DNA of 64,000 nucleotides from Acidobacteriota bacterium. Lineage in GTDB: Bacteria > Acidobacteriota > UBA6911. The notes under the pieces are model-generated. The model was not told the origin of the DNA. It did not search any database and saw only the letters and a program-made list of their open reading frames with translations. Made by a program: the position numbers and the translations under genes. Positions 33,523 through 55,982 of the stretch are shown here, piece after piece. The DNA lies in contig OY761556.1 of NCBI GenBank assembly GCA_963664705.1, positions 6,368,001-6,432,000 of the forward strand, written 5' to 3'. How positions within the stretch are numbered: position 1 is the first letter of the stretch; each line of letters begins with the position of its first letter.

Positions 33523-33716
33523 TAACCTGCCTGAACGTCGTACTAAACGGTACTAAAACCTCCTATAAATCCTGGATTCGGCGGAATTCTTTTAGGACGG
33601 TTTCGGCTCCAGTAGGATCCAGAACCGCCACACAACCGTCACACTCGCTGCTTTTGGATCAAAAAGCCATCGGCGGCGCCTGTGACAAGTTTGTTCCGAC
33701 GAATCGAGGATACAAA

Positions 33717-35703: not shown

Positions 35704-35774
35704 TTTTTGCCGGCGGATATTGTCTGGGAAAGATGGTTCATCAATTCTTGTGCGAAGGAGGTTTGTAAAAACCT

Positions 35775-35966: not shown

Positions 35967-36025
35967 GAGTCCTTTTATCCATTTGGCTTCCCATGGCTCT
36001 GAAAGCAGAAAAAATCCGCTTGCTC

Positions 36026-36057
36026 TTGTCACGAAAAATACCTATTATTCGTGACAA
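36026..36057. promoter_or_regulatory. Inverted repeat, likely operator of the second AbiE operon
   Basis: TTGTCACGAA-a-AATA-cc-TATT-a-TTCGTGACAA just upstream of ATG 36074. Confidence 0.7.
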
Positions 36058-36073
36058 ATCACTCGGATCGCAT

Positions 36074-37676: not shown

Positions 37677-37695
37677 ATTGCGTCAGAAAATAGCC

Positions 37696-38457: not shown

Positions 38458-39831
38458 TCACGCCTCTGAACTTGACTGAGCCATATATTGAACAAAATGA
38501 TTCACGGCTTCCGGACATGAAGCAAAGTGAAGATGAATATAGCTGGCCAGGATATTCTTGTTTGTGAATCCTTCCCGAAATGTCTCTCCGGACCGCGTCA
38601 GCCTGACTGTGTAGGCGGTTACCCAGTTTGGAGGGTAAATCAGTTCGGAATAGTGATATTCATGGCCGCGCAGGATTTCCCCTTCCAATCCCCAAAACGT
38701 TAATGCGGCGAGTTGCACTTCAACATATCGGAGCGTTTTCAGTCTATTTCCTATGCGCACCCAGCTTGGCAGCAATCCGACCTGCGGATAGCGACTGCCG
38801 TCTTGCCGCTCTATTCCTTCGACGAGATACATTAGACCACCGCACTCCGCATAGATCGTGCCGGAGAAATTTCGAATCTGTTCCAATATCGGACCATTGG
38901 CAGAAAGCTCAGCGGCATGTTCCTCTGGATAGCCACCTCCAATGTAAAGCCCGTTCAGTCCATTGGGAAGTCGGGAATCGTGAATAGGCGAAAACTCCAC
39001 TAACTCGCAGCCAGCCTGCTCCAAGGCATCGAGATTGTCCGGATAATAGAAATGGAATGCTTCATCCCTGGCGATTCCTAATCTGCATCGTTTCGGCACA
39101 GGATGGATGTCCGGAAAAAGATCCGGTTGCGGAGGCACTGCTTGCGCCGCTTTCACAATGCTCTCTATATCCACCGTCGGGGCCAGGACATCCGCCAATC
39201 TCTCGATCAAATGGCTGGGGCTGCTATTTAAATTGGCGTTTACCAAACCAAGATGGCGACTCGATAATTCGGGAAGGCTTTCGCGCATCACAAAGCCCAG
39301 CATCTTTGTACGAGACTTTGATTCCACAGCTTCACGTAACCCGCGCGCATGGCTTTCCGAACCGCAACGATTGGCGATAACACCGACAATCTGAACACCA
39401 TGTTCGAAGGTCGAGTATCCATGCATGATTGCTGCAAGGCTACCCGCCAATCCGGATACATCCGTAACCAGGATTATGGGCGCATCCAGCCATTGTGCGA
39501 TTTGCGCAGTGCTTCCATCTAAGGAAACAGGATCGGCTCCATCAAATAGCCCCATGACTCCCTCAATAACGGCGATATCCGAATCTGCCGTTGCGCGGGA
39601 GAACAGGCGTTCTATGTATCTCCTGCCGGTCATCCAACTATCAAGGTTATAGCAGGGCCGGCCGGAGGCCATTGCGAGATAGGTTGGATCCAAATAGTCC
39701 GGCCCAACCTTGAAAGTTTGCACGCGCAATCCATTGCGCCGAAGCAGCGCCACAATTCCAAGCGTCAGTGACGTTTTGCCAACACCACTGTGAGTCCCCG
39801 CTATGACTATTCTGGGGATGTGCCGCATCAA
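38458..39831 (-). CDS. cbiA: Cobyrinate a,c-diamide synthase
   Basis: AGTHSGVGKT, FKVGPDYLDP, IEGVMGLFDG, SRHLGL, AFHFYY, GGGYPE and YAECGG motifs. Confidence 0.96.
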   Translation of the reverse strand: MMRHIPRIVIAGTHSGVGKTSLTLGIVALLRRNGLRVQTFKVGPDYLDPTYLAMASGRPCYNLDSWMTGRRYIERLFSRATADSDIAVIEGVMGLFDGADPVSLDGSTAQIAQWLDAPIILVTDVSGLAGSLAAIMHGYSTFEHGVQIVGVIANRCGSESHARGLREAVESKSRTKMLGFVMRESLPELSSRHLGLVNANLNSSPSHLIERLADVLAPTVDIESIVKAAQAVPPQPDLFPDIHPVPKRCRLGIARDEAFHFYYPDNLDALEQAGCELVEFSPIHDSRLPNGLNGLYIGGGYPEEHAAELSANGPILEQIRNFSGTIYAECGGLMYLVEGIERQDGSRYPQVGLLPSWVRIGNRLKTLRYVEVQLAALTFWGLEGEILRGHEYHYSELIYPPNWVTAYTVRLTRSGETFREGFTNKNILASYIHLHFASCPEAVNHFVQYMAQSSSEA

Positions 39832-40346
39832 TATTCAACTCCGCGCTGAGCCGTGTTCCCCTGCTGCAATGCATGCTTTACACAATGCATTTCGGTAACC
39901 GTGTCCGCTGCCTCAATCAAGCCTGGGCTCGCATGCCTGCCGGTCAGGATGATGCATGAAACCGTTGTTTCTTTTTTCAGAAGCTCCAATACTCGATCTT
40001 CTTCAATGAGCTTTTTGTGAACGGCAATACAAACTTCATCCAACACAATAAGGTCGTGTAATCCCGCACTCAGCGCTTTTTCAGCAAAGGTCATGGCATC
40101 GCTGGCCGTCTGGCAATGATCCTTGAATTGCGAATGGTTTGGGTTCGGAACGAAACCGCGCCCCATCTGTACAATCTCGACCCCGGCAAGAACCCTGCCG
40201 GCACCGGCTTCTCCAGTCTCGCCATCCGACTTGACAAACTGAATGACCAGGCACTTCTGGCCATGGCCGGCAGCGCGCAAAACGACTCCGAGCGCCGCCG
40301 TGGTTTTTCCTTTCCCATCACCGGTGAACAACAAAATGCGTTTCAT
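39828..40346 (-). CDS. btuR: Cob(I)yrinate a,c-diamide adenosyltransferase (CobA/BtuR/CobO)
   Basis: TGDGKGKTTAA, QFVK, LDE, LTGR and ADTVTEM...KH motifs. Confidence 0.95.
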   Translation of the reverse strand: MKRILLFTGDGKGKTTAALGVVLRAAGHGQKCLVIQFVKSDGETGEAGAGRVLAGVEIVQMGRGFVPNPNHSQFKDHCQTASDAMTFAEKALSAGLHDLIVLDEVCIAVHKKLIEEDRVLELLKKETTVSCIILTGRHASPGLIEAADTVTEMHCVKHALQQGNTAQRGVEY

Positions 40347-40372
40347 GCCGATTCCTCCAGAATAAGGCAAGT

Positions 40373-41317
40373 CTAGACGATTGCTGCGCGAACGCCGGCA
40401 AACAGCAGCAAGAACAGGATCGCGGTACCAAGCATTAATTGGTTGGCCGAGAGAATATCGCGTGTGTCGAGTGATCGCAGCGGATCGCCGAAATAATTTC
40501 CCTCATACCGCTCGCCGCCATAATAATTCACGCCTCCAAGTTGTACGCCCAATGCTCCGGCCACAGCTGCTTCCGATAATCCGGCATTGGGGCTGGCGTG
40601 CTTGCGCCCATCCCGCAAACAAATACGCAGACAATTCAGCGGCCGGAATCCCAGGATTGCGGCTGCTGCTGCAATCAAGGGAGCCGTTACCCTGGCCGGC
40701 AGATAATTCGCAACGTCATCCAATCTCGCGGAGGCCCATCCGAAATACAGGTATCGTTCGTCTTTGTAGCCGAATGTGGAGTCCAATGTGCTGACAGCCT
40801 TATACATCATTGCAGCAAGCGGGCCTCCCAGGATGGCAAAAAACAGCGGCGCAGTAATTCCATCCACAAGATTTTCCGCCACGCTCTCTACTGCGGCCCG
40901 TGAGACATCCCGCTCATTTAGTTGATCCGTGTCTCGTCCCACGAGCATGGAAACGCAGCGTCGCGCCTCCCCCAGATCTTTCTGCCTAAGAGCCCGATAG
41001 ACACGATAGCTGTGTTTCGCAAGATCCCTGGAAGCAAAGGTGGTATAAAGCAAAACGATGGACACGGCATTGCCGGCATAAGGATGCATCCGTGACGATC
41101 CCGAAATCAGGGCATATGTGATTAGGCCTGTAAGTCCGACAACCAGAGATGCCGCAGTAATTCCGGCTATACGCTCGTTTGGAATCATGCGTCGCAACGG
41201 CTTTTCCAATGTCACAGCGAACCTGCCGATCCATCTGACCGGATGAGGAAACCATCGCGGATCCCCGAGCAGAAGGTCTAATCCAAACGCCGCCAGTATC
41301 TGAATCTCGAGTCTCAT
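40373..41317 (-). CDS. cbiB: Adenosylcobinamide-phosphate synthase
   Basis: [31 protein letters not shown] and HASPNAG motifs. Confidence 0.96.
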
Positions 41318-43848
41318 CGCAATCCCATCAGCCGATAGATTTCATCTACGCGAATGCTTTTGCGCACCACTTCGGCCAATCGGTCAAGCGCCGGCTCCAG
41401 GTTATAGGGAGCGCATATTTTTCCCAAAGGCGCAAGTCGCCGGCGCTTTCGTAACCGATCGATGAACCAGCGGCGAAACCCATCTGCATCGAAGATGCCG
41501 TGGAGATACGTTCCCCAGATGAGATCTGTTCCGCTACCGATAATCGCGCCATCAGGACGGACTACAACAGACGGAAGACTGTCTCCATTACTTAGGCCGT
41601 GATGAATCTCATAGCCATGTACGCTGTGCCCAGAGCAGTGTGTGGCAGCAGAGCGCACCAGCGTTTTTTCTGCAGCCATGGTCGTCGTAAGTTCCAACAG
41701 TCTCAGTCCCTGAGTCTCTTTGCGAGTTGATTCAATGCCGGCAGGATCGCTAATTCTTGTCCCCATCATCTGATATCCGCCGCAAATTCCTACAATTTCC
41801 ACAGTCTGCGCCTGTCGCAGTATTGCCTTATCTATGCCGCTTTGCCGCAGGCACGCCAGATCTTCGAGAACATTCTTGCTTCCAGGCAGAATAATGGCAT
41901 CCGGAGATCCAAGATCGCACGGAGACCGCACTACTCGAACGGTTACGTCCGGTTCATTTCGCAGAGCATCAAAATCGGTAAAGTTTGAAATATGCGGAAG
42001 ATCAATTAGGGCGATGTCGACACCTTCCGTCAGATCTCGTTCCTGAGCTGTCGACGTGCCTTTGAATGTTACGGAGTCCTCCTCAGGCAAACCGAGCTGA
42101 GAAATAAAGGGAACAACTCCATACACCATCTTCCCGGTATGACGTTCGGTATATTCGTGAGCCTCCCGAAGCAGGGATTCTCTGCCTCGAAAGCGATTCA
42201 CGACAAATCCTGCAACCAGAGCTCGTTCCCATTCCTCCAGCACTTCCATCGTACCTACAAATGATGCATATACGCCGCCGCGATCGATGTCGCCGACCAG
42301 GAGCACCGGTGCTTGGGCATAGCGCGCCATGCTCATGTTCACAATATCGTGGCTCTTGAGATTGACTTCCGCCGGGCTGCCCGCACCTTCCAGAACTATT
42401 GCATCATATTCTTCCGACAGACTGTCGTAGGCCTCCTGGGCGGCACGGAATGCCTCCGGTTTGAAACGGATATATTCTTCCACACTCATATGGTCCACAG
42501 GCTTGCCGCAGACAATCACCTGGCATCCAACATCGGAACTGGGCTTCAATAGAACCGGATTCATTTGGGCTTCAGGCTCGATATGGCAGGCCTGAGCCTG
42601 AACAACCTGCGCACGGCCCATTTCTCCTCCATCCTGCGTTACATAGGAGTTGAGCGACATGTTCTGCGATTTGAATGGAGCCACGCGGTATCCATCCTGC
42701 AGCAAAATCCGGCATAGGGCGGTGGTCAGGATGCTCTTACCGGCATTCGAACTTGTTCCTTGAAACATGACCGCCGGCCTTTTCGCCATTTTCCGTCTGG
42801 TCTTGCGACTTCCCAGGCACTCACACAGCCGCACATTTTCCGACTCGGTCCGGACCGCAATTCTGAAAAAGCGGTCATCCAGCCCCTTGAAATCACTGCA
42901 GGTCCGGATTGCAATGCCTTGATCCAATAGTTGCTGAGCAAGCGTGGAGGCATCCAGCCCCGGACGGTCAATGCGTATCAGCAGGAAATTTGCATGTCCC
43001 GGAAAGACTGTGAAGCCTCCCAAGGTTTTTATTCCCCGCATAAGGAGATCCCGCTGCCGGGTCACATACTCTCGCGTCCTGCGCAAATACTCGGAATCGT
43101 TTAGCGCGGCCACTCCTACTGCTTGCGCCAGGGAGTTCACCGACCATGGAGCCTGGACTTCACGAAGTCGGCCAATAACGGAGGCATCAGCGATCGCGCA
43201 TCCCAATCGAAGACCGGGAATGGCGAAGATTTTGGTCAGTGAAAGAAGAACAATAATATTGTTAGGACGATTCCGGGTTAGCCGGTCCATACCATCAACA
43301 AAATCAGCAAAAGCCTCATCGACAACAAAGATCGTGGAGGGATTGCGCTCAGCCAATCGCCGAATTGTTTCGGCATCACAGATCGTGCCTGTCGGATTGT
43401 TCGGTTGCCCTAAAAAAACAAGATCCTCGCCTTGCAGCACGGAACCAAGCTCTTCCACATCGAGTGCAAAATCATTGACCTCCGCGAGCGGAAAATGATC
43501 CACCTGCTTGCCCGATATCGTGCAGGCACGTACGTAATCGGTGTAGGAAGGGACAGGCACGACGCACCGCCTGCCGTACAAACGGGGAATCAAATAAAGA
43601 ATTTCGCTCGAACCATTCCCAATGATAATTTCATTCAATCCGGCGCCATAGCGCTTTGCCACAGCATCAAGAAGAATCAGGCACTCAGGATCAGGATAAT
43701 GCACCAGTGTGCTGATCTTGGAACTGATTAGAGGCCGCAACCATTCCGGTGGTCCCAAAGGATTCAAGTTAGCGGAAAAATCGAGTATTTCTTTTTCCGA
43801 CTTTCCTGTAGATTGAGCCAACAAGCGCAGATTCCCGCCGTGCATCAT
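41314..43848 (-). CDS. cbiP: Fusion of threonine-phosphate decarboxylase (CobD) and cobyric acid synthase (CbiP/CobQ)
   Basis: N-terminal HGGN...[12 protein letters not shown]...PNNPTG...[14 protein letters not shown]; C-terminal [39 protein letters not shown] and GTYLHG. Start overlaps the cobS stop (ATGA). Confidence 0.93.
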
Positions 43849-44588
43849 GCTCTCCACCCCCAGGATGCACAAATCAACGCTGGCAGGATTTCGGTTATCT
43901 CGCAGACAGCTCCGAGCGTGTCTCCTGTAAATCCGCCTATTTTTTTGCGGCACCAAAGTGAAAAAACAATTGTCATCAGGAAAACTATTCCAGCAATCAC
44001 TAGTCCAGGAATATTCATTACAAACCATGCAGCGACTGACAGAATCGATAATGCAGCAATCAGAGCCGGCCAACCCGGCCGCCCAAACACTGTGACTAAT
44101 CCTCCTTGAGTGCGGGCATAGGGAACGGCCTTCATGCCAAGCACCAAGGCGCATCGTCCGGCCAAAGGCATCAACAGAACCGCGCGCCAATGCAATAGTC
44201 CGGGCACTGAGGCCAAAGCGGAAATTTTCAGCGCCAGTACGCAGACGATGGCAATAACACCCATCGGCCCCACATGGCTGTCTCTCATAATCTCCAGAAT
44301 TCGTTCTCTGGGTCTGGAACTTAAAAAACCGTCTGCGGTATCCGCCAGCCCATCCATGTGAAAACAACCCGACACAGCCAGCATCAGGATAACCATGACG
44401 ACGTTTGCCGGAAGCGGCGGGAATAATCGGCAAACTCCGCAATCCAGGACAGCCAGCACTCCCCCGAGAATCAAGCCTACGACAGGAAAGAAAAGAACGC
44501 TCTGCCGCAGTTCTTTCTCACCGACTTGAAAACGAGAAGAGACGGGGAAAATGGTCAAAAATTGAATGGCGGCAAGCAGAGGTTTCAT
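43845..44588 (-). CDS. cobS: Cobalamin synthase
   Basis: [25 protein letters not shown] and [10 protein letters not shown] motifs. Confidence 0.96.
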
Positions 44589-45649
44589 TTGTTCTCCTTC
44601 GAAACAGCAGCCTCTTCAAAGGAAGCTACTTCGGTGAGAACGTGCACTGCCGCTTCCACAATGTGCATGGCGAGCGCTGCGCCGGTTCCTTCGCCAAGAC
44701 GCAGGTTCAGATCAAGGAGCGGTTCTTTGTTTATATGCTGCAGAGCCCGGCGATGTCCTTGCTCAACGCTTCGATGGGCGGCAATGGCATATTCCATGCA
44801 ATTGGGCTGCAGGGTGTGCGCGATCAATGCCCCTGCGGTGGAAATCAAGCCATCTACCAAAACAGGTTTCTTCATGGAGGCAACTCCGAGAATTAGGCCC
44901 GCAATGCCGCCGATTTCGTAGCCTCCCACTTTTGAAAGCAGATCAATGGCATCGGAGGGATCTGGCCGATTTACCTGCAGAGCCTTTTCGATGATGGCTA
45001 CCTTATGTTTAAACTGCGCTTCGTCAATGCCGGTTCCATGCCCGGTAGCTTCGGCCACACTGCATCCGGTAATGGAGGCGATGATAGCGCTGCTGGACGT
45101 GGTATTGCCGATCCCCATATCTCCGGTTGCGTAGAGGTCGGTGCTTGAAGAAAGCTCGCGCGCCACAGCAATGCCGGCTTCGAGAGATTGTATTGCCTCT
45201 TCCCTGGACATCGCGGGCCCCTGCGCCATATTCCTGGTGCCGGCGCCAATCCGATGAGAAAGAATCTTGCCCGACGCCACGAGAGAGCGCAGGTCTCCTG
45301 CCACACCCATATCTACCACCACAACGCGTGCATTCGCCTGGCGCGCCAGCGCATTAATGCCTGCCCCCCCAGCTACAAAGTTTTGAACCATCTGCGTGGT
45401 AACTTCCTGCGGATATTTGCTGACGCCTTCGGTCGCTACCCCATGATCACCCGCCATTGTCACAATGGTCCGCCGCGAGACAGAAGGGTGTATAGAGCGC
45501 GTCATGCCCGCCAAATCCTCTGCAAGGTCCATAAGCCGGCCCAGCGCCCAGTATGGTATTGCCAGCTGTTCTAGTCGCGCATGGGCGGCCGCGCGCGTGG
45601 CAGAATCCTGTGGCTCAATTTGATCAAGAGTCGAAGAAAGAAGTTTCAT
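44585..45649 (-). CDS. cobT: Nicotinate-nucleotide--dimethylbenzimidazole phosphoribosyltransferase
   Basis: AGDHGV, GGAGIN, GDMGIGNTT, GGYEI and LRLGEGTGA motifs. Confidence 0.96.
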   Translation of the reverse strand: MKLLSSTLDQIEPQDSATRAAAHARLEQLAIPYWALGRLMDLAEDLAGMTRSIHPSVSRRTIVTMAGDHGVATEGVSKYPQEVTTQMVQNFVAGGAGINALARQANARVVVVDMGVAGDLRSLVASGKILSHRIGAGTRNMAQGPAMSREEAIQSLEAGIAVARELSSSTDLYATGDMGIGNTTSSSAIIASITGCSVAEATGHGTGIDEAQFKHKVAIIEKALQVNRPDPSDAIDLLSKVGGYEIGGIAGLILGVASMKKPVLVDGLISTAGALIAHTLQPNCMEYAIAAHRSVEQGHRRALQHINKEPLLDLNLRLGEGTGAALAMHIVEAAVHVLTEVASFEEAAVSKENK

Positions 45650-45659
45650 TGCACAACTC

Positions 45660-46214
45660 CTATAAAGAATCTGTAAGCTGCTTGATTTCGATCGGCTGCC
45701 CGGACACCAGGAGAACTACGCGCATGCTCGCTTCAGCGATTATCTGATTGCATCTGCCGACGAGATCGCGATAAAGACGCGACAACGCGTTTTCAGGAAT
45801 GAGTCCCATCCCTATTTCGTTGGTTACAAAAATGACTGTACCCGGATGCGCTTTACATGCGGTCACGAGGCTATTGCACTCTTCGGCGATATCAGTTTCG
45901 GATATTCCCCTGCCGTTTTGTTCTGCCTGATACAAAAGGTTGTTAACCCAGAGCGTAAGGCAATCGACCAGGATTGTCGGAAACTCATGGTTATTATCAA
46001 TAACCTTTGCAGCATCCAGCGACTCCTCGATGGTATGCCATCGCTTCTGACACCGGGCATCCTGATGTTTCCGGATGCGCTCGCGCATCTCTTCATCAAT
46101 TGGCGGACATGTTGCCAGAAAGGCACGAGGTTCCGGCAGTGTCTCCGCCAACTTCTGGGCATAGGTGCTTTTGCCGCTTCGACCACCGCCGGTTATGAGA
46201 ATAATGTGTCCCAT
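45660..46214 (-). CDS. cobU: Adenosylcobinamide kinase/guanylyltransferase
   Basis: ITGGGRSGKS, EMRERIRKH, VDCLTLW and VTNEIGMG...YRD motifs. Confidence 0.96.
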   Translation of the reverse strand: MGHIILITGGGRSGKSTYAQKLAETLPEPRAFLATCPPIDEEMRERIRKHQDARCQKRWHTIEESLDAAKVIDNNHEFPTILVDCLTLWVNNLLYQAEQNGRGISETDIAEECNSLVTACKAHPGTVIFVTNEIGMGLIPENALSRLYRDLVGRCNQIIAEASMRVVLLVSGQPIEIKQLTDSL

Positions 46215-46819
46215 GACGTTGTGTCCTCGCTGAAACATGAATGGTTGAGACCGGTCAAGACGCCTTTGCCGCCGAAGAGATCCAGAATGGTCAGCGATGC
46301 GTAGTCCACATTGAAAAGGACGTATTGCCGGGGATGAAGCCCGAGAAAATGACAGAGCAGTGCGCGGATAACGCCCGCGTGTGTAACGGCAAGAATCGTC
46401 TCTTCGGGACAGGAAACGAATGTGGATGCGGCCCGTTGAATGCGGATCAAAAAATCTTCAAGCCGCTCGCCACCGGGAAATGAAAATGCCGGACTAAAGT
46501 CCGCCCATTGATTTACGGTCTCCGGATCTGATTGCTGAATTTCGTCAAACGTTTTCCTCTCCCAAGAGCCGAAATCCACTTCTCTCAGGTCCGCATTAAT
46601 TTCGGTCGATATTCCCTGCAATGGCTGAATGGTTTCAAGGCAACGCTTAAGCGGGCTGCATAAGCAGCGACCCGGCCGATACCTTCTGATAAGAGAGATA
46701 AGAGATGCAGCTTGCCTGCGTCCATGTTCCGAGAGGCCTATATCAGTAGAACCGATGAATTGATGAAGATGCGCCGCTTCGTGTTCGGCATGCCGCAGAA
46801 GCAAGAGTTTCTTTTTCAT
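46193..46819 (-). CDS. cobC: Histidine phosphatase, probable alpha-ribazole/adenosylcobalamin-phosphate phosphatase
   Basis: LRH, SPLKRC, LREVDFGSWE, PGGE and VTHAGVIR motifs; cob operon context. Confidence 0.85.
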   Translation of the reverse strand: MKKKLLLLRHAEHEAAHLHQFIGSTDIGLSEHGRRQAASLISLIRRYRPGRCLCSPLKRCLETIQPLQGISTEINADLREVDFGSWERKTFDEIQQSDPETVNQWADFSPAFSFPGGERLEDFLIRIQRAASTFVSCPEETILAVTHAGVIRALLCHFLGLHPRQYVLFNVDYASLTILDLFGGKGVLTGLNHSCFSEDTTSWDTLFS

Positions 46820-46844
46820 TTCTTTATTCAAGGATGAAAACACG

Positions 46845-47573
46845 TCAATCCTGCGCGCGCCGGATAACAAATAAGGATAGGGTTACGAACATAACAGTAA
46901 GAATCACAAGGTAAATAAGAGCAACCCAAGGCATCGGCTGGCCTGCGGCCGCAGCCCGAATCACCTGGGATGCCGGCGTCAGTGGCAAGATCTTAATGAA
47001 CCACCGCAGCCAGGAAGGATAGGTGTCCACGGGGAAAAAAGTGCCGCAGAGAAAAGCCATAGGTGTAATAACAAAACTGGTCAGCATTCCTTGATCCGCA
47101 TGGGATCGAGCAAGCATTGCAGTACTGATCGCAAGAGCCGAAAAAACCGTTGTTGTCATAATGATCCCCAATAGCAGCACAGGAGATGGCGAGATAGGCA
47201 CGCGAAACAGAAGACCTATCAGGACAACGATAGACGCGGCAATAAATCCCCGTACAATTCCACTAACAATCTCCCCCACCACGTAAGCCCAATCGGCCAC
47301 CGGAGCCGTGCGAATCTCATCGAAGGTTTTCCAGTAGAAACGAGCAATATTGATCTCAGTTGAAAGGCCATAGCTGTTGATCATGGCGCTCATGGCGATG
47401 AGGCCGGGAAGAATAAAAAGGCTGTAATCAGTCCTTTCCGCCGAGCCCTTTCCGCCCCATCCAAAGGTGATGAAATAAAGCAGGGGCGATATGGTGAAGG
47501 AGAAGAAGTATCGCCAAAACTTCCGCTTAAGAATGATGAGTTCGCGCAACATGACTGCCAGCACCTGATGCAT
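46845..47573 (-). CDS. ABC-2 type permease (NodJ-like)
   Basis: YSLFILPGLIAM and ITPMAFLCGTFFP...LPLT motifs. Confidence 0.88.
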   Translation of the reverse strand: MHQVLAVMLRELIILKRKFWRYFFSFTISPLLYFITFGWGGKGSAERTDYSLFILPGLIAMSAMINSYGLSTEINIARFYWKTFDEIRTAPVADWAYVVGEIVSGIVRGFIAASIVVLIGLLFRVPISPSPVLLLGIIMTTTVFSALAISTAMLARSHADQGMLTSFVITPMAFLCGTFFPVDTYPSWLRWFIKILPLTPASQVIRAAAAGQPMPWVALIYLVILTVMFVTLSLFVIRRAQD

Positions 47574-48434
47574 GTGCGATATCTCCTTCCTGTTGGTTCG
47601 GATTGACACGACGTCCGGTAAGCTTAATGAAAATATCTTCCAGATTTGCGTGACGGATTGTCGCCCGCACATCATGTTTTGACAGGAATTCTGCGGCTGC
47701 ATCCCGGTTATCAAAGAACAGAGTCTTCGTTCCTGTTGAGTTCAAGTAATCAACGACCACTGTTCCCACGGATGCGATCAAGGTCTGCGGGCTTCCCTGG
47801 GCAATTACGTGTCCCCGATCAATGATGACCACGTGGTCAGCCAACATTTCTGCCTCTTCAATATAGTGAGTGGTGAGAACGATCGTGCATCCTTCAACTC
47901 GCAGACGCCGGATCAAGTCCAGACTCTACGGCGCGCATGCGCATCGAGGCCTACGGTCGGTTCATCCAGAAGCAGAACGCGGGGACGGTGCATCATGGCG
48001 CGGGCAATCGAGAGGCGCCTCTTCATCCCGCCAGAATAGGTCGACACTCTTCTGCCGGCTTGTTCGACAAGCTCGGAGAACTCCAGCATTTCTTTAATCC
48101 GGACGGTCAGGTCGCTTCGCTCCATGCCATAGAGCATGCCGTGAATCCGGAGGCTCTCTTCGCCTGTCAGCTCCGGATCAAAATTGAGTGTTTGATGTAC
48201 GACTCCAATCTGTTGCTTCACTTTCAACGGCTGGATGGCTACGTTGTGCCCGTCAACAGTAACCGAGCCCCTGGTTGGCTTTGTCAATGTTGACAGTATG
48301 CGAACGGTGGTTGTTTTGCCGGCTCCATTGGGGCCGAGCAAGCCGTGAACTTTGCCTGCGGAGAGATGCAGCGACAAATTATCCACCGCGATCAAACTTC
48401 CATATTGTTTGGTTAATCCGTCAAAATGAATCAT
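47527..48434 (-). pseudogene. ABC exporter ATPase (NodI/DrrA-like) with a 1-bp frameshift near 47920
   Basis: GPNGAGKT, YSGGMKRR and LDEPT in one frame; LIRRL...LTTHYIEEA in the next. Adding one G (TGG GAC TTG) restores RRRVWDLIRRL. May be a sequencing error. Confidence 0.8.
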
Positions 48435-48470
48435 AGGATGTGCACGCTTTCTTCCTCTGCGGTCAGATTT

Positions 48471-49781
48471 TCATGTCCAGAGAACCCATCGGACTTCCCG
48501 AAGTATGGACTCAACAAGCCATGCGCCGCCCAGAGTCCCCAGCATTGATTTCGGCACAATATCGATTACTCGTCCTGAGGGGAACGCGACCTCGATCCCT
48601 CCGCATTTGTTACCGAATCGGGCTTGGAGTACTTCCTGACCGTCTGCAAACAGAATCTCCGGATCCGCCATGCGCCAGGGCTTTTGCCAGACATCCCCAC
48701 ATCCTATGCCTTCGAGCCACGTTTTGAGTTTTGCTGCCGCATCCGTAGAATAGAAATCAGGCGTTTCCACAGAAACAGGCAGCATTCCAAGATATTGGAA
48801 TAACCATTGAGCAAGAGGCAGCGCGAATGAAGGATCCGACTGTACCGCAAACGTTGTTCCTTTGAGAGCCTCCGTGTAACTCGAAGCTCGATCGATCATT
48901 CTCGAAACCTGACGCCTGCGATCCTGAATGTCGCTAATTGCAGGTGTTGGATCTGAGTGTACTGCATGAGCAACAGCGGTGATCCATTCCATCGTTGCGG
49001 AAAAGCCGACAGGAGCTCCTGAATTGCTTGCTGCTATCATGCCGCCATATTGGCGCTCCAGCCATGGCACCACACAATCGGCATATTCATCGTGTATGAC
49101 TGCATAGCAGGAGGCTTGCGGGATCCGCTGATATTCATCTGTGGCGCTTCCCGCTCCAATGGCACAGAGGACTTCAATCCCGCATAATTCAAGAAGACGC
49201 CGCAATTCTTCAATGCTTCCAGACCAGTATTGGTGGGCAATCGATAAGCCGACCAGCACGACAGTTTTAGGAATGTGCGGTTGAGGTTTCGGGGACAGGG
49301 CCTCAAGAATTGAAATCACCCCCTGCTGATAACCTGCGGCAAAAGGATGGGAGAGCATCGGCATCTCGATTGTCGCGCAGGGGGTGAAAGGCGCTGCTTC
49401 AGTGGCACATCTTTTGAGATCATCTCCTATGAGGGCAGCTCCTGGAGAGTTTATTACTGTAACCAAAGCGGCATTATGTTTCGCAACCAATGCAATTGCC
49501 TGGGTCAGTTTTTCTCTTCCTCCAAAAACATAGTCGTCTCCATCCAGATATGTTGTGGGGATACGCGATTGACTGAAGTAGAAACGTTCTGCGTAATTCA
49601 GTTGTTTGCCGGCATCAAGCCGGGGAAAAAAACGATCAGACATCGCACCGTGGAGCCCCCGGCATCCTGTGGGGCCATGGAGAATCACAGCGCCGTCCCG
49701 CACGCTCTCGCAGGCTAGCAGTGCGCCGCTGAATCCGTCAGGTATGCGTGAATTCCCGCCATGTTTAGGACAAATCATCAC
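48471..49781 (-). CDS. Nitrogenase component-1-like subunit (NifK/BchZ-like)
   Basis: ILHGPTGC, PTTYLD..DYVFGG..KL, ALIGDDL and PVGF..T..W motifs; only one of the three canonical cluster Cys is retained. Confidence 0.85.
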   Translation of the reverse strand: MMICPKHGGNSRIPDGFSGALLACESVRDGAVILHGPTGCRGLHGAMSDRFFPRLDAGKQLNYAERFYFSQSRIPTTYLDGDDYVFGGREKLTQAIALVAKHNAALVTVINSPGAALIGDDLKRCATEAAPFTPCATIEMPMLSHPFAAGYQQGVISILEALSPKPQPHIPKTVVLVGLSIAHQYWSGSIEELRRLLELCGIEVLCAIGAGSATDEYQRIPQASCYAVIHDEYADCVVPWLERQYGGMIAASNSGAPVGFSATMEWITAVAHAVHSDPTPAISDIQDRRRQVSRMIDRASSYTEALKGTTFAVQSDPSFALPLAQWLFQYLGMLPVSVETPDFYSTDAAAKLKTWLEGIGCGDVWQKPWRMADPEILFADGQEVLQARFGNKCGGIEVAFPSGRVIDIVPKSMLGTLGGAWLVESILREVRWVLWT

Positions 49782-51972
49782 GCCACCCTTCCTTCTCCGG
49801 CAGTTGCATCAGTCGCCCCCAGCGTTCCGCCCTGGTCAGACCACTGAAAAAACCCACATCCGGCACCAGCGGAATTGCATCGATCCGCACGCTCGCCGGA
49901 CGGTCCTCCCAGAATCCATTTGTCAACATCAGGTCCGGTGCAAGGGTGTGAACCTCTTCATCCCGTTTTTGTTGTGTATAGGAAAGCTCTATCGGGAAGT
50001 GCCCTTCGTAGCGGGTGGCGAACGCATCGTCCCATACGGAATTGAGCACGCCTAACTTGACGATTTCCATATCGAGATCGGCAATCAGGCTGAGAAGCCA
50101 ATCGATTTGGTAATTAGGCGTGACCACAAACACTCGCTTTCCTGCAAGGGAAGGTCGAAGAGCTGAGAGTGCAGTCTCATACAGCTTTCGATTATGCTCG
50201 ATGATAGCGTCGGCATCGTTTTGTTTTTCAAAAACATCGGCAATGCGCTTTAGCCAATCTGCTGTGGCCTCAAACCCAACGGGGAACGGATCATCGAGGA
50301 AGCTCGCCTGATAACGGTCAATTAGAAAATCCCGGATGGATCTGCCGCATCGGTCCGCGGAGGCAAGCAAATTCAAGCGGCCGCGCTTAAATTGTTTTAG
50401 TTGAATACCGGTGCAATTACGCAGGAAACGGCAGTTGATGCCGAGCCCAAGTTCATGAAGCAGGTCTCTCACAGTATTAAAATTTGCATCAGTATTGCCG
50501 GCGAGGTTTTTTTCTCCGACGATGTTTACAGCATCCGGATCGAAAGGCATTTCGGGATCGATAAAATGGTCTGCGACAGCCATCATGGCATTGATAATGC
50601 CCTGCATATAATCACCGGCGATGTCCCCGTCTGTTTGAATCGGAATAACCGGAATCTCTGTCCGCATGCGCGCGCGTGCAGCTTCTACGGATTTTGTGAT
50701 GTCATCGCCGATTATTCCGGATGCGCAAGTAGTAACAACAAAGAGCGCCTCGGGATTTGATCCCAGGGAATTCAAAATCCCCTTCTCCAGGCTCTCACCG
50801 CCTCCGAAGATAGAGATGGTTTCATCCATCTCAGAGCTTTGGATGGACGCCAGGCTCGAAACCTCAAAAGAATTTCCATTTCGGCGTTCGACGCGAAGGG
50901 CAGATGATGCCATCCCAATGTACGAAATATGGGCACAGCTGCGCGGTCCATGCGCGAGAATTGCAGTGTTTCCAATTTGCATTAATGTGTGGATAGCGCC
51001 ATTGAAGGCGCATCCGTGCAAAGCTTCATGGGCACGAACACTTTTTGAGTGATATTGCTTTGGCGGCAACGGTGCAGGAATCGGAAGGGCCGCTTCATGC
51101 CTGGCGGATGCGGGAATCCGGCTCTCGTGCAGAGCTGATTCGGAGATCGTCCCTGCTGTTACCATTTCATTCCCCAGGATTATCGCTTCCAGGTTATCAG
51201 GCGAAAGGGGCTGCGCAGCGTAGGGCGGGGGGAACTGCAGAATCTCCTTGGCAAGATCACGGAAGCAAACAGCCAAAAAGCTGTCAGGAAAAGCCTCCGT
51301 GAGGGATTGTCCCAGGCGTTCGGCTTCAGTGATTTCCGGACTTCTGGGAAAGGAGGCAATGACGGGCAGTCGAACGGCATCGGCAAAGCGTTGAATACGA
51401 TCCTTTTCGTGTGGCAGACCGCGTTCATTGAAAATCAGTCCTGCCATTCGAGCGCCATTCTTCTCATAATTCCGGACGCCGCGGAGAATGTTGTTGGCGG
51501 CATACAAAGACATGAACTCGCCCGAAGTCACAACGTAGACAATGTCGGCGTACTTGTCCCGCAGCGGCATCGCAAAACCGCCACAAACCACATCGCCCAG
51601 AATGTCGTAGATTGCGACATCAAAATCGCACCCGGCAATATTGAGAGACTGCATCAACTCGAACGCAGTGAGGATGCCACGGCCGGCACAACCAACTCCC
51701 GGCTCAGGGCCGCCGGCTTCCACGCAAGCCACACCCGCAAATCCCGAGTGCAGAATGGCGTTCAACCCTCTTTCCTCCGGTTTTGTTTTTCTGATGTACT
51801 CAAGAACCGGAAGCGCTTTCCGTCCCTGCAAAAGAAGTCGGGTTGAATCCTGCTTCGGGTCACAGCCTACTTGTAGAATTCGCATTCCCGACATAGCCAT
51901 TGCCGCCGAGAGATTCGCCGCAATGGTTGATTTGCCTATGCCGCCTTTTCCATAAATAGCAATCTGTTTCAC
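49765..51972 (-). CDS. Nitrogenase-like fusion: NifH/CfbC-type Fe protein + NifD/CfbD-type component-1 domain
   Basis: YGKGGIGKST, GCDPKQDST, GGPEPGVGCAGRG and GDVVCGGFAMP; then a Pro-rich linker; then HGCAFNGA, HGPRSC and TTCASGIIGDDI. Confidence 0.92.
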   Translation of the reverse strand: MKQIAIYGKGGIGKSTIAANLSAAMAMSGMRILQVGCDPKQDSTRLLLQGRKALPVLEYIRKTKPEERGLNAILHSGFAGVACVEAGGPEPGVGCAGRGILTAFELMQSLNIAGCDFDVAIYDILGDVVCGGFAMPLRDKYADIVYVVTSGEFMSLYAANNILRGVRNYEKNGARMAGLIFNERGLPHEKDRIQRFADAVRLPVIASFPRSPEITEAERLGQSLTEAFPDSFLAVCFRDLAKEILQFPPPYAAQPLSPDNLEAIILGNEMVTAGTISESALHESRIPASARHEAALPIPAPLPPKQYHSKSVRAHEALHGCAFNGAIHTLMQIGNTAILAHGPRSCAHISYIGMASSALRVERRNGNSFEVSSLASIQSSEMDETISIFGGGESLEKGILNSLGSNPEALFVVTTCASGIIGDDITKSVEAARARMRTEIPVIPIQTDGDIAGDYMQGIINAMMAVADHFIDPEMPFDPDAVNIVGEKNLAGNTDANFNTVRDLLHELGLGINCRFLRNCTGIQLKQFKRGRLNLLASADRCGRSIRDFLIDRYQASFLDDPFPVGFEATADWLKRIADVFEKQNDADAIIEHNRKLYETALSALRPSLAGKRVFVVTPNYQIDWLLSLIADLDMEIVKLGVLNSVWDDAFATRYEGHFPIELSYTQQKRDEEVHTLAPDLMLTNGFWEDRPASVRIDAIPLVPDVGFFSGLTRAERWGRLMQLPEKEGWRDDLS

Positions 51973-52025
51973 TGTGCCTCTTACCTTCTTTTTTGTCTGT
52001 TTGCTCCAATCGGTCTCATAGAAAG

Positions 52026-52859
52026 TCAGTCACTGAAAGCAAAGCGTATAGGCAAAATGGCTTTGACCGTTATTGGCGTACCGTTTCGAATGGCAGGAAG
52101 AAAAGACGATTTCTTCAGCGCCGCAATTGATGGCGGCACGAAAAGCGGATCGGAGGCTTCAATAACCTCCACATGCTTTAGGCACCCATTCGCATCAATA
52201 GTGATGGCAAGAACAACCTTCCCTTCTTTTTTCTGCCTTCGTGCTGCAAACGGGTATTCAGGCATCTTTCTTTGAAGAAATCGCGGACCGGTGGGAGATC
52301 CAAAGCTGACAAGATTTGAGCTATCCCCATTACCTTGCCCTGTGCCACCGTTTCCGAATCCGCCACTCCCATCCAAGCCGCCTCCGCCACCAATGCCCTT
52401 GCCCGAATTGCCGCCTCTGCCAACTCCGGTGATACTCCCGCCGGGAAATCCTTGAGCCACCGGTTCAGTCATTGTTAACGGCGCGATTTCTTCATTTGTT
52501 GAAAGCAAGCTTTCTCCCAGGATTTCAGTGCGAGTTTGTTGACTATTTCCATTTTCAACTGCCACAGCTATTGGGCTAGGCCGCGTGCCTTCATCCTGGG
52601 TTGCGGTGTTGTTTCGCTCCGTTGAAACCTCGGCTGCTTTTTGCTTAATAGGCTGCACTGGCCGTCCCGGTTTTACTGAAATCTCCGCGATCTCTTCCAT
52701 GGGAAGAGTGAGAGAGTTTTCATCTATCGGGACTACTTCGACAACATCAACGTCTCGAGGCGTATTCCTGACAGAGGATAGGATTGCCGCCAGAATAATC
52801 GCGTGCATCAACACCGATACCGCTATGCTCTTCAAGCGCCTGCCCCGATTTGTTGCCAT
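52026..52859 (-). CDS. tonB: TonB energy transducer
   Basis: TM with SVLMHA, a Gly-rich linker, and C-terminal PEYP..AR..KKEGKV...IDANG...FLPA...G.P; start at ATG 52859. Confidence 0.88.
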   Translation of the reverse strand: MATNRGRRLKSIAVSVLMHAIILAAILSSVRNTPRDVDVVEVVPIDENSLTLPMEEIAEISVKPGRPVQPIKQKAAEVSTERNNTATQDEGTRPSPIAVAVENGNSQQTRTEILGESLLSTNEEIAPLTMTEPVAQGFPGGSITGVGRGGNSGKGIGGGGGLDGSGGFGNGGTGQGNGDSSNLVSFGSPTGPRFLQRKMPEYPFAARRQKKEGKVVLAITIDANGCLKHVEVIEASDPLFVPPSIAALKKSSFLPAIRNGTPITVKAILPIRFAFSD

Positions 52860-52878
52860 CGAATAATCCCCGAATCGG

Positions 52879-52925
52879 GCAAAAAAAATCCCCGGATCCG
52901 GCCAATAGGGCCAAATCCGGGGATG
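52879..52925 (-). terminator. Terminator of cobalamin riboswitch 1
   Basis: ATCCCCGGAT-ttggcc-ctatt-ggccgg-ATCCGGGGAT-TTTTTTT. Confidence 0.85.
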
Positions 52926-52989
52926 CCGTTTTTCATCCTCGATGTTTTGCCAGAGCACCCAATCCACGAGGTGCAGCGCAAATTTTTCT

Positions 52990-53145
52990 GTTCAGGTCTT
53001 CCGGCTTCCGGATCGTTCTACTTGCCGCGCCTTCCCATCCCATCGGACAGTGGCAATCTGCGGTTTTCGTCCCCGGTTACGGCGGCGGGTCCGCGACGGA
53101 TTTCAACCGTCTTCCCTATCGAATTTTCAAAATAGAACTTTTACA
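52990..53145 (-). ncRNA. Cobalamin riboswitch 1 (controls the tonB-nfl-cob operon)
   Basis: AGGGAAgacGGTtgAAATCCgtcGCGGaCCCgCCGCCGTAA...GCCACTG...GGGAAGG...AGCCGGAAGACCTG (B12 box). Confidence 0.95.
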
Positions 53146-53207
53146 GACAATGCGTGATGCAAGTCAAGCTAATTTCAATGTTGTTGACCCGCACCGTTGA
53201 TCGCTAT

Positions 53208-53396
53208 ATATTGGCGCCGCTTTTCGGTTCTTCGCGAATACGAAGAAAAAAGGGAACCTGGTGCGAATCCAGGACTGCCCCGCAGCGGTAAGCAGGAACG
53301 AAAGCCATCACCAAGCACTGATCCTCTCCGGGATTGGGAAGCGATGGCCAGTAGAGATTAAGTTTTATTGCCTGCAAGTCCGAAAACCTGCCGATA
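53208..53396 (+). ncRNA. Cobalamin riboswitch 2 (controls cbiZ)
   Basis: AAAAGGGAAcctGGTGcgAATCCaggACTGcCCCGCAGCGGTAA...GCACTG...GGGAAG...AAGTCCGAAAACCTGCC. Confidence 0.93.
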
Positions 53397-53529
53397 GCTG
53401 ACGCGATCCTCGCGTTGAAATTCACGAGTCGCCGAGGGGCGGGCTGGTACCTCCCATTATTGATATATGGGCATATGTTTTTCCCCTTTTGGCTAAAACC
53501 TTGAGCGATAGCAGAAAGGGTGATCAAGC

Positions 53530-54267
53530 GTGATGGAAATTGTCGAAGAAGTGATTCCGCTACCGCGAGATAAATCTTTTGTTTGCCGGAAGTGTGATAA
53601 GACGCTCGTAGTTTCATTCGCGTTGCCGCGTCCCGTTCTCAGTTGGGCCGCCTATAACGGCGGATTTCGCACGAATGTCTCCCACGTCATCATTCATGCC
53701 GTGGACTCAATTCCGGTACAAAGCGCGCGCCAAGCGGCAAGTAGACTGGACCTGCGCGGTACCGTCGTCGGCATGATGACGCGACACGAGTTGGATTTCC
53801 AGACAGTTACGGTGGCCGAGGGAGATCTGCAGGTTTCCGCCATAGCGGTTGCAGATTGTTCAATGATGGCAACAGTCGGAGAACATCCGGTGCATCCAAT
53901 CGAAAGACCAGGACCGAATATTCACCTTACTTTATTCAATCTCATTCTGGTTACAAATTACCGCTTCACGCAAGAAGCTATGCTGGAAGCCATTTCCATA
54001 GCAACTGAAGCAAAATCCCGCGCAATCTGCGAACTGGGTCTCCATACGCGAAGCGGAGAGCTCGCCACTGGCGGCACCGCCGATTGTGTGGCTATGGTTT
54101 CGGGTCTTGATCGGCGCTATGAATGCTGCTCCAAAGAGGAGGCGTGGGGAATGCTGATTGGACGGGCCTCGCTCGAATGCATGCGAAGGGCGCTGGCCGG
54201 CAGTGCTGCTGTTTCACATTCGATCCAGCGAGCCCAATTTTGTCATCGAACCACAAAAGCCCTCTAA
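53530..54267 (+). CDS. cbiZ: Adenosylcobinamide amidohydrolase CbiZ-like
   Basis: VLSWA.YNGG, VGMMT, NLIL...EAI.IATEAK and ATGGTADC motifs (canonical ATGTxTD); B12 riboswitch upstream. Confidence 0.75.
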   Translation: MMEIVEEVIPLPRDKSFVCRKCDKTLVVSFALPRPVLSWAAYNGGFRTNVSHVIIHAVDSIPVQSARQAASRLDLRGTVVGMMTRHELDFQTVTVAEGDLQVSAIAVADCSMMATVGEHPVHPIERPGPNIHLTLFNLILVTNYRFTQEAMLEAISIATEAKSRAICELGLHTRSGELATGGTADCVAMVSGLDRRYECCSKEEAWGMLIGRASLECMRRALAGSAAVSHSIQRAQFCHRTTKAL

Positions 54268-55946: not shown

Positions 55947-55982
55947 TCAGGAGAGTTCCTTTCTCTTAAGGCGGCACTTGTT

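What the first reader, a model, noticed from the sequence alone, without database searches (positions are those of the whole stretch)
48471..53145. Cobalamin-riboswitch-controlled nitrogenase-like reductase (NifH-NifD fusion + NifK-like) heading a late cobamide operon
Seen: riboswitch, tonB, a 735-aa fusion, a 436-aa partner, an ABC pair, then cobC-cobU-cobT-cobS-cobD/cbiP-cbiB-btuR-cbiA, all co-oriented with short gaps or overlaps. The Fe-protein domain keeps its P-loop and both cluster Cys. The D-like domain keeps three Cys (GCAF, GPRSC, TTC) and the partner keeps one (GPTGC). No His442-equivalent, nifB or nifEN is visible. Established: a 3+1 ligand [4Fe-4S] arrangement is that of the tetrapyrrole reductases COR/DPOR, and CfbCD reduces Ni-sirohydrochlorin a,c-diamide made by a CbiA homologue. 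No nitrogenase-like enzyme is part of the known B12 pathways. No corrin ring-building cbi genes are in the window. Inference: an undescribed ATP-driven reductase acting on a corrinoid or other imported tetrapyrrole (ring or Co reduction, repair, upper-ligand removal) or in lower-ligand synthesis.
Basis: partly seen in the sequence, partly recalled or inferred. Interest (0 to 1): 0.9.

Follow-up and report, generated by a model that had tools for sequence, protein, structure and literature searches.

The report
B12-switched nitrogenase-like corrinoid reductase
A vitamin-B12-sensing RNA switch heads an intact operon that joins an unstudied nitrogenase-like enzyme to the late B12-finishing genes of a bacterium with no detectable B12 ring-building genes, and the enzyme likely uses ATP to reduce scavenged B12-type molecules for reuse, which would be a new job for this enzyme family.

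Summary
A cobalamin riboswitch with a 16-bp terminator heads tonB, a 735-aa NflH-D fusion, a 436-aa NflK, an ABC-2 pair and cobC-U-T-S-D/P-cbiB-btuR-cbiA.

The catalytic pair has a COR-like 3+1 cysteine pattern and lacks the FeMo-co cysteine. The K model is closest to DPOR BchB (Z 38.6). The proteins form their own well-supported clade and fail the cut-offs of Nif, Bch and Cfb models.

The B12 link is conserved: 20 of 37 homologue lineages have a B12-specific neighbour, against 0 of 40 control loci. The family is rare, about 1% of sampled genomes.

12 of 13 also have cbiJ, so it is not a CbiJ substitute. This genome and one other keep it without ring genes or cobalt chelatase, which argues against cobalt scavenging.

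A corrinoid substrate is likely (~0.8). The best single mechanism is ATP-driven reduction at cobalt of salvaged corrinoids (0.4); ring repair is the main rival (0.25). No substrate has been shown. The fusion was mentioned in 2012; my searches found no paper on the B12 link.

The parts
52974..53150 (-). Cobalamin riboswitch aptamer heading the operon
   Evidence: Rfam RF00174, 94.5 bits, E 3e-22
52881..52924 (-). Intrinsic terminator (16-bp stem, U7 tail), the likely expression platform
   Evidence: switching itself not shown
52026..52859 (-). tonB (likely start ATG 52859, after the terminator)
   Evidence: TonB_C; 43% identical to the tonB of the same module in G301
49765..51972 (-). NflH-NflD fusion, 735 aa: Fe-protein domain (P-loop, Cys95, Cys130) plus D domain (Cys321, Cys346, Cys416; no Cys275 equivalent)
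48471..49781 (-). NflK partner, 436 aa: Cys40 at the NifK Cys95/BchZ Cys position, conserved Asp15 at the NifK Cys70 position; BchB-like fold
   Evidence: AlphaFold model pLDDT 85.5; top match BchB Z 38.6, rmsd 2.7 over 399 residues
47527..48434 (-). ABC ATPase; the apparent frameshift near 47918 is an assembly error
46845..47714 (-). ABC-2 permease (exporter type)
   Evidence: PF01061; the same pair is in the G301 and G302 modules
38458..46870 (-). cobC, cobU, cobT, cobS, cobD-cbiP fusion, cbiB, btuR, cbiA: late cobamide genes, co-oriented with the reductase genes
53208..54267 (+). Divergent cobalamin riboswitch (53208-53409) and cbiZ-like gene (53530-54267)
   Evidence: RF00174, 109.8 bits; PF01955
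54214..57581 (-). Unknown ORF, TIM-barrel protein and CN-hydrolase; the last two recur beside homologues
   Evidence: each in 3 of 37 lineages; weak riboswitch-like hit upstream, below the gathering score
57845..63787 (+). Tandem cobalamin riboswitches and btuB-btuF-btuC-btuD-type importer; a second, long cbiZ follows at the window end

Best explanation
The riboswitch-headed NflH-D/NflK pair is likely an ATP-driven, single-[4Fe-4S] reductase that binds a salvaged or newly made corrinoid and reduces its cobalt (Co(III)/Co(II) to Co(I), likely shedding any upper ligand) so that it can be adenosylated and finished by the late cob genes. Shown: gene order, riboswitch and terminator, ligand pattern, a distinct clade and a conserved B12 neighbourhood. 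Inferred from DPOR/COR: two tethered Fe domains form the Fe-protein dimer, electrons pass to a cluster held by 3 Cys of D and 1 Cys of K, and the substrate sits in the pocket where nitrogenase holds FeMo-co. Inferred from context only: the substrate is a corrinoid and cobalt is the site of reduction. It would be an accessory, anaerobic stand-in for the step that CobR or free flavins perform between cobalt insertion and BtuR/PduO.
For: Regulation and operon. Architecture: the 3+1 Cys pattern equals BchY/BchZ column for column, with no Cys275 equivalent (COR ligands as described in PMC13474568 section 5.2). The K model is closest to BchB (Z 38.6), above MarK (33.8) and NifK (32.4). Context: 20 of 37 lineages have a B12-specific neighbour, against 0 of 40 control loci. 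Rfam-confirmed riboswitches lie upstream on the same strand with only co-oriented genes between in L001, L002, L011, L098, L107, L188 and L190. An adenosyltransferase lies beside or within a few genes of the pair in L006, L007, L102, L107 and L115, ends the G301 module and is in this operon; mutAB-meaB adjoin it in L006, L007, L100, L101 and L109. BtuR or PduO is present in 16 of 18 carrier genomes. No other tested partner except cbiD and cbiA is near-universal: CobN 9 of 16, CbiZ 9 of 16. G000 has no cbiD, cbiC, cobN, cbiK or cbiX hit, and G518 no cbiD, cbiC, cobN or cbiX hit, yet both keep the pair among riboswitch-led uptake and late cob genes. G518 also gave no cobQ hit, so a substrate common to complete and incomplete corrinoids fits best. 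The CobNST-CobR-CobO order is in PMC7242693, and G301 has cobN-chlD-chlI-cbiZ-btuR in the module. That cobalt is reduced before the ring in a Co-corrin is recalled chemistry, from no call.
Against: There is no biochemical or expression evidence. 14 of 37 lineages show no B12 or uptake neighbour in the DNA fetched; Syntrophomonas copies sit beside Fur-ZnuABC and larBCE. 17 of 18 other carriers are de novo producers against 62 of 151 in a control phylum, an enrichment that a general cobalt reductase does not predict. G309 and G312 have neither BtuR nor PduO (EutT not tested). The recurring CobN-ChlID, CbiZ, CN-hydrolase, radical SAM and exporter neighbours suggest deeper remodelling than a redox change. 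The characterised tetrapyrrole members of the family (DPOR, COR, CfbCD) reduce the ring, not the metal. Most B12 producers lack the enzyme (4 of 351, 3 of 399 and 2 of 301 genomes). G518 is a fragmented assembly, so its absences are soft. The control loci are mostly archaeal and not dereplicated, and the marker list was drawn from the test loci.
Confidence: 0.4

Rival explanations
1. Ring repair or maturation. The enzyme reduces the macrocycle of an imported oxidised, damaged or metal-free corrin, as DPOR and COR reduce chlorins. Amidases (CbiZ, CN-hydrolase) trim it, CobN-ChlID inserts cobalt where present, and CbiA/CbiP re-amidate it.
For: COR-like ligands and a BchB-like fold. A conserved Asp in K in 76 of 85 sequences could serve as a proton donor or ligand. 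The module nflHD-nflK-btuFCD-rSAM-cobN-chlD/I-cbiZ-ABC2, with a CN-hydrolase, is shared by G301 and G302. cbiA is in 18 of 18 carriers, and this operon keeps cbiA and cbiP without ring genes. The producer enrichment fits a product that enters at the cobyrinate stage.
Against: cbiA-like genes are common anyway (102 of 151). G518 has no cobQ, cobN or cbiZ hit. No natural damaged-corrin substrate was found in the one search made (listing only). CobN is absent from 7 of 16 carriers and from G000.
Confidence: 0.25
2. Cobalt scavenging. Reduction loosens the metal of an imported cobalt tetrapyrrole, a CobN-type protein removes it as HmuS removes iron from heme, and the ABC-2 pair exports the empty ring. 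The cobalt feeds de novo B12 synthesis.
For: 17 of 18 other carriers have cbiD. Neighbours include CobN-ChlID, an exporter, cbiK directly after nflK in L130, Fur-ZnuABC, CobW and FmdE. HmuS, a CobN homologue, de-chelates heme and needs NADH (PMC12583661 passages).
Against: G000 keeps an intact riboswitch-led pair inside its late cob operon with no ring genes and no CobN, CbiK or CbiX hit; G518 is similar. The CobN copies here come with ChlI/ChlD ATPases as insertion chelatases do, whereas HmuS de-chelation needs no ATP.
Confidence: 0.15
3. Non-corrinoid substrate. The enzyme serves a B12-related or metal-related metabolism and travels with B12 islands without acting on a corrinoid.
For: 14 of 37 lineages have no B12 neighbour in view. 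B12 riboswitches also head B12-independent alternative enzymes such as metE and nrdD in these loci. Other group IV systems are tied to sulfur metabolism.
Against: It is embedded within uptake, CobN, CbiZ and late cob operons across Desulfobacterota, Chloroflexota, Bacteroidota, Bacillota and Holophaga. It lacks MAR and ISR ligand patterns. A sulfur-assimilation neighbour (a Cys/Met PLP enzyme) stood out in only one of the loci I annotated, L009.
Confidence: 0.13
4. Lower-ligand chemistry, for example a reductive step in anaerobic dimethylbenzimidazole synthesis.
For: The genome has a riboswitch-led bzaF/C/D/E-like operon about 13 kb from the fusion gene.
Against: That operon looks complete on its own. 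Only 2 of 80 metagenome loci (L145, L154) had a BzaC-like methyltransferase hit, and none had a BzaF, BzaD or BzaE hit.
Confidence: 0.05

Closest known systems
COR (BchXYZ) and DPOR (BchLNB), NFL Group V
   Same: Fe protein plus a two-subunit catalytic part with 3 Cys from one subunit and a fourth ligand at the NifK Cys95 position (Cys as in BchZ). No FeMo-co cysteine. The K model's best structural match is BchB (Z 38.6).
   Different: Far below all Bch model cut-offs (for example BchB 50 against 490 bits). It forms a separate clade, has the Fe protein fused to D, has no photosynthesis genes nearby and is under a B12 riboswitch.
[quoted passage not shown]
   Same: The best NCBIfam hit of the Fe domain is CfbC (310.6 bits, close to nifH at 306.7). 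It is a simple Fe-S tetrapyrrole reductase with a CbiA homologue nearby.
   Different: Below the cut-offs (CfbC 402; CfbD model 39.5 and 31.6 bits against 268). It is heteromeric D+K rather than single CfbD, with 3+1 Cys against 2. Grouping with CfbD was unstable between trees.
Fused nifH-nifE-like plus nifN-like arrangement noted by Dos Santos et al. 2012 (PMC3464626)
   Same: The same architecture and similar hosts (Archaea, Firmicutes, Deltaproteobacteria); this is probably the same family.
   Different: That paper gave it as 'data not shown', filtered fused sequences out of its tree, and tied it to no function. Its 'cobalamin reduction' remark concerned NflD beside a CbiA homologue, the arrangement now known as CfbBCD.
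CobR corrin reductase / flavin-mediated Co(II) reduction
   Same: The proposed pathway slot, between cobalt insertion and adenosylation (PMC7242693 passages).
   Different: CobR is a flavoprotein of the aerobic route with no homology to this ATP-driven Fe-S system; the analogy is functional and untested.
Group VI NFL of Elusimicrobia (10.1101/765248)
   Same: Lacks the FeMo-co Cys ligand, has at most four cluster Cys, and is proposed to reduce a tetrapyrrole.
   Different: Described with many radical SAM genes and often multi-copy D/K; no riboswitch, Btu, CbiZ or chelatase link in the passages read. No named Group VI sequence was in my trees.

Membership tests
Nitrogenase superfamily (NFL two-component reductase) | Fe protein with P-loop and two cluster Cys, plus PF00148 catalytic subunits | tested here: met
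True nitrogenase (NifHDK/Vnf/Anf) | Six P-cluster Cys | tested here: not met
   K has Asp/Cys/Pro at the three positions
True nitrogenase (NifHDK/Vnf/Anf) | FeMo-co ligand Cys275 | tested here: not met
   LNLLAS aligns to NifD LNLIHC/LNTVMC; no Cys in the six fused D rows
True nitrogenase (NifHDK/Vnf/Anf) | FeMo-co ligand His442 | not tested
   The pairwise alignments ended before this region
COR BchXYZ / DPOR BchLNB | 3+1 ligand pattern for one [4Fe-4S] cluster | tested here: met
   The same columns as BchY and BchZ; DPOR has Asp at the fourth position
COR BchXYZ / DPOR BchLNB | Equivalog score and clade membership | tested here: not met
   Far below the cut-offs; separate starred clades (one Bch set as reference)
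CfbCD (Group IV-B) | Single homomeric CfbD passing TIGR03282 | tested here: not met
   39.5 and 31.6 bits against 268.4; the reference CfbD rows scored 396 and 410
MAR (Group IV-C) | P-cluster Cys set plus MarD Cys270/His429 and marB | tested here: not met
   K has one Cys, there is no Cys at the Cys275-equivalent column and no nifB-like gene in the operon. His429 itself was not tested and no Mar sequence was in the trees.
ISR (Group IV-F) | IsrD with only Cys88; IsrK with Cys70/95/153; isrB | tested here: not met
   The pattern here is the reverse, D 3 and K 1
Group VI NFL | NflH clade sister to Group V | tested here: inconclusive
   The quick Fe-protein tree has long BchL/BchX branches and no named Group VI reference
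Corrin reductase function (works like CobR) | Forms Co(I) corrinoid for adenosyltransferase | not testable with these tools
   Needs an anaerobic assay

The most novel reading that the evidence does not exclude
This fused clade is the first nitrogenase-like enzyme of vitamin B12 metabolism. It would be the core of an undescribed anaerobic corrinoid-recycling module (BtuBFCD import, CbiZ and CN-hydrolase trimming, CobN-ChlID metallation, ATP-driven NflHDK reduction, ABC-2 export of by-product) that rescues spent, damaged or metal-free corrins and returns them to the late pathway.
Probability: 0.6. Interest if true: 0.9.

Novelty: new variant of a known kind. Interest (0 to 1): 0.72.

Why it matters
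A 2026 review names the functions of uncharacterised nitrogenase-like systems as a main open problem and says gene context has been of little help (PMC13474568, section 10). It lists no B12-linked system in the sections and passages I read. Here, context gives a regulator (a B12 riboswitch with a terminator), a short list of purchasable or preparable substrates and a two-gene enzyme with a tethered Fe protein. Named cultured carriers exist (Holophaga foetida DSM 6591, Bengtsoniella intestinalis BP47G). If true, it adds a corrin to the chlorin and F430 substrates of the family and reveals an unknown branch of cobamide sharing in anaerobic communities. It also flags a source of false nifH calls: the Fe domain is about 45% identical to NifH.

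Tried and rejected
CbiJ replacement (ring-D reduction in de novo synthesis) was rejected: 12 of 13 fused-clade genomes have cbiJ, and G000 has no ring genes.

An obligatory partnership with CobN or CbiZ was rejected: each is in 9 of 16 carriers.

CbiA as a specific marker was weakened by its 102 of 151 base rate. That DsrN-type paralogues inflate this rate is recalled, from no call.

A sister relation of NflK to CfbD (SH-aLRT 99 in the quick tree) did not hold with another alignment and model. Deep placement is unresolved.

A decayed or pseudogenising island was rejected because the one apparent frameshift is an assembly error. A recent foreign-composition island is not seen: GC is 0.526 against a genome mean of 0.532 +/- 0.020.

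The promoter and terminator scan as a whole was at chance level (14 against 12.7; 20 against 18.0); only the 16-bp stem stands out. No RNA holder was listed, and run X7 laid no reads. The plasmid search found no record covering 80% of the fusion, among 274 records with a match.

No model of the fusion protein and no D-K complex was obtained, so pocket size is untested. Literature searches found no paper linking this clade to B12. The library lacks most subscription journals, and I opened no supplements, where fused sequences or neighbourhood figures (for example Dos Santos Fig. S2 or the North 2020 sequence sets) may appear.


Full report
OBSERVATION. Rfam finds a cobalamin aptamer at 52974-53150(-) (94.5 bits). 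A 16-bp hairpin with a U7 tail follows at 52924-52888. This is the layout of a transcription-terminating switch, and it moves the likely tonB start to 52859. Then come a 735-aa protein with an Fe-protein domain and a component-1 domain, and a 436-aa component-1 protein that overlaps it by 17 nt. An ABC ATPase/ABC-2 permease pair and cobC, cobU, cobT, cobS, cobD-cbiP, cbiB, btuR and cbiA follow, all co-oriented. The ATPase appears frameshifted. Contigs of two runs from one sample carry one more base at 47918 and otherwise match 46800-52938 exactly, so the operon is intact. That sample may be the window's source, so it corrects the sequence but is not independent support. Co-transcription and B12 repression are inferred, not shown.

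WIDER ISLAND. The operon is one arm of a larger B12 island. A divergent riboswitch heads a cbiZ. TIM-barrel and CN-hydrolase genes follow, then tandem riboswitches with btuBFCD. Past the window end lie a second long cbiZ and a riboswitch-led ThiC-like, O-methyltransferase, BzaD-like and radical SAM set. I read it as a bzaF/C/D/E-like operon; BzaD scores 415 against a cut-off of 450, so the names are inferred. The genome is one contig, 98% complete with 6% contamination. It gave no hit for CbiD, CbiC, CbiJ, CobN, CbiX or CbiK. Its three tetrapyrrole-methylase hits are a CysG/SirA type, RsmI and one unassigned protein far below the cbi cut-offs. It is therefore a corrinoid salvager and remodeller. 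A true nifHDKENB cluster lies elsewhere.

PROTEIN ANATOMY. The P-loop and Cys95/Cys130 of the Fe domain and Cys321/346/416 of the D domain are invariant in 13 of 13 aligned fusions. The D cysteines align with the three NifD P-cluster ligands, and the FeMo-co Cys275 position holds no Cys. His442 was not tested. K has Asp, Cys and Pro at the NifK Cys70/95/153 columns, and the Asp motif is kept in 76 of 85 homologues with that region. This 3+1 pattern matches BchY/BchZ, which the 2026 review describes as the likely COR cluster ligands. The K model (pLDDT 85.5, 18 sequences) matches BchB best (Z 38.6, rmsd 2.7, 399 aligned), ahead of MarK (33.8) and NifK (32.4). A shared fold shows no function. 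All Nif, Bch and Cfb models score below their cut-offs. In two trees the fused D and K sequences each form starred clades (100/100), sister to an unfused group that keeps 3+3 Cys and has similar B12/CobN neighbours. A grouping with CfbD did not survive. The trees had one reference set each for Bch and Nif, two CfbD rows, and no Mar, Isr or named Group VI rows.

HOMOLOGUE CONTEXT. One search gave 72 loci, 13 with near full-length fused-type matches (one, L006, split into two ORFs). One search gave the best 80 of 207 metagenome matches to K. The family has 124 representatives at E<=1e-30 in the 50%-identity library. I clustered 98 K sequences at 70% identity into 57 lineages and dropped 20 whose longest locus was under 10 kb. 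Of the remaining 37, 20 had a B12-specific neighbour (riboswitch 11, CobN 10, CbiZ 6, others fewer), 23 had that or a Btu-type importer, and 14 had neither. Of 40 control Fe-protein loci, 0 had such a neighbour once 11 with a CbiA/CfbB-like gene were set aside. The controls are mostly archaeal and not dereplicated, the markers came from the test loci, and the riboswitch profile was partly built from them. Rfam confirmed riboswitches in 7 of 15 loci and in 9 of 9 loci chosen because the profile had flagged them. In L001, L002, L011, L098, L107, L188 and L190 the switch lies upstream on the same strand with only co-oriented genes between. G301 and G302 share a module of nflHD, nflK, btuFCD, CN-hydrolase, radical SAM, cobN, chlD/I, long cbiZ, ABC-2 pair, btuB and tonB. 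The window's island has homologues of all of these except the radical SAM and chelatase genes. G303 has much of the module on a different contig from its nfl genes.

GENOME CO-OCCURRENCE. The family is rare: 2 of 301 genomes in the window's phylum, 4 of 351 in G301's phylum and 3 of 399 in G307's class, each count including the centre genome. Among 18 other carriers (one, G792, showing only a short K at its locus), cbiD was found in 17, against 62 of 151 in the control phylum. So most carriers are de novo producers and the window's genome is the exception. cbiJ was found in 12 of 13, which rejects a CbiJ substitute. cobN and cbiZ were each in 9 of 16. BtuR was in 15 of 18, and PduO in 1 of the other 3. 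cbiA was in 18 of 18, but its base rate is 102 of 151. G518, a fragmented assembly, repeats the window's case: no cbiD, cbiC, cobN or cbiX hit, and also no cobQ or cbiZ hit. Its nfl genes are behind a riboswitch next to btuFCD and cobT/S/C. Kin are not independent, so these counts are descriptive.

MECHANISM. The enzyme has the build of the family's tetrapyrrole reductases and is wired into every kind of B12 context: uptake, remodelling, CobN-type chelation, adenosylation, late assembly and mutase use. I put the odds of a corrinoid or other cobalt-tetrapyrrole substrate at about 0.8. The feature common to producers and to the two ring-less, chelatase-less genomes is a corrinoid that must be reduced at cobalt before adenosylation. 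This is the step CobR performs between CobNST and CobO, and the passage on the anaerobic route names no specific reductase for it (PMC7242693). I commit to ATP-driven cobalt reduction, likely with loss of the upper ligand, at 0.4. Ring repair of damaged or metal-free corrins (0.25) explains the amidases, CobN and the producer enrichment better, and it matches what DPOR, COR and CfbCD do, but it fits G518 poorly. Cobalt scavenging in the manner of HmuS (0.15) fits the producers and the exporter but not this genome. A non-corrinoid role (0.13) and lower-ligand chemistry (0.05) remain.

WHAT IS KNOWN. Papers seen:
- PMC13474568: outline, part 1 of section 2.3, sections 2.4, 5.2 and 7, part 1 of sections 9 and 10, and term passages. 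No B12-linked system; 'fused' and 'fusion' occur 0 times.
- PMC3464626: the section on nitrogenase-like sequences and passages. It notes fused nifH-nifE-like plus nifN-like genes as data not shown and filtered them out.
- Passages only: 10.1101/765248, PMC13753814, 10.64898/2026.08.20.746119, PMC6461909, PMC8620254, PMC7242693, PMC12583661, PMC10418091 and PMC13759103. PMC8620254 reports speculation that CobN/Bch chelatases beside BtuB insert cobalt into imported material.
Searches returned no paper on the B12 link; the other papers were seen as listings only, and no supplements were opened. Earlier notes of this scan describe similar B12-linked nitrogenase-like clusters in other genomes. They are unchecked leads and not support.

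VERDICT. This is a real, intact and conserved feature: a distinct, functionally unassigned clade of nitrogenase-like reductases under B12 control. It is a new variant of a known enzyme kind, with a testable new substrate class. The architecture is in print in one sentence; the B12 link was not found in print; the mechanism is inferred.

Noticed in passing
G000:C1:6433061-6439105 (L092:2374-8105), just beyond the window: Riboswitch-led bzaF/C/D/E-like operon for anaerobic lower-ligand synthesis in a genome without corrin ring genes, followed by a riboswitch region beside nrdD/nrdG.
   Followed up: partly
window 54214-57581 (-): An unknown 266-aa ORF (no Pfam hit; homologue in the late cob operon of L149), a TIM-barrel protein and a two-domain CN-hydrolase recur in B12 modules of other phyla: candidate new corrinoid-remodelling enzymes.
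   Followed up: partly
L191, L192, L193 (G301, G302, G303): Conserved btuFCD - CN-hydrolase - radical SAM - cobN - chlD/I - long cbiZ - ABC-2 module in anaerobic de novo producers; function undescribed, present in G303 apart from the nfl genes.
   Followed up: partly
L014, L015, L023-L025, L029: Unfused sister clade with 3+3 Cys beside riboswitches, BtuB/BtuF-like genes and CobN; G318 has 17 CobN matches and G316 has 9.
   Followed up: partly
L003, L005, L008, L121: Syntrophomonas-type copies of the fused reductase sit beside Fur-ZnuABC and/or larB/C/E nickel-pincer genes instead of btu genes.
   Followed up: no
window 27575-30152: Three fluoride riboswitches (27575-27637 -, 29873-29957 -, 30089-30152 +) around a cation/proton-antiporter-like ORF and dynamin-like GTPase ORFs (labels recalled from motifs, not scanned).
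   Followed up: no
window 3794-5528 (-): M-box riboswitch (117.5 bits) upstream of an NRAMP-like transporter ORF (label from motif recall).
   Followed up: no
window 33486-38349: ParA-like and replication-initiator-like ORFs with AbiE-type gene pairs next to the end of the cob operon, suggesting an integrated mobile element; labels not scanned.
   Followed up: no
G000:C1:5863549-5867623: A second cbiP with btuB behind tandem cobalamin riboswitches elsewhere in the genome.
   Followed up: no
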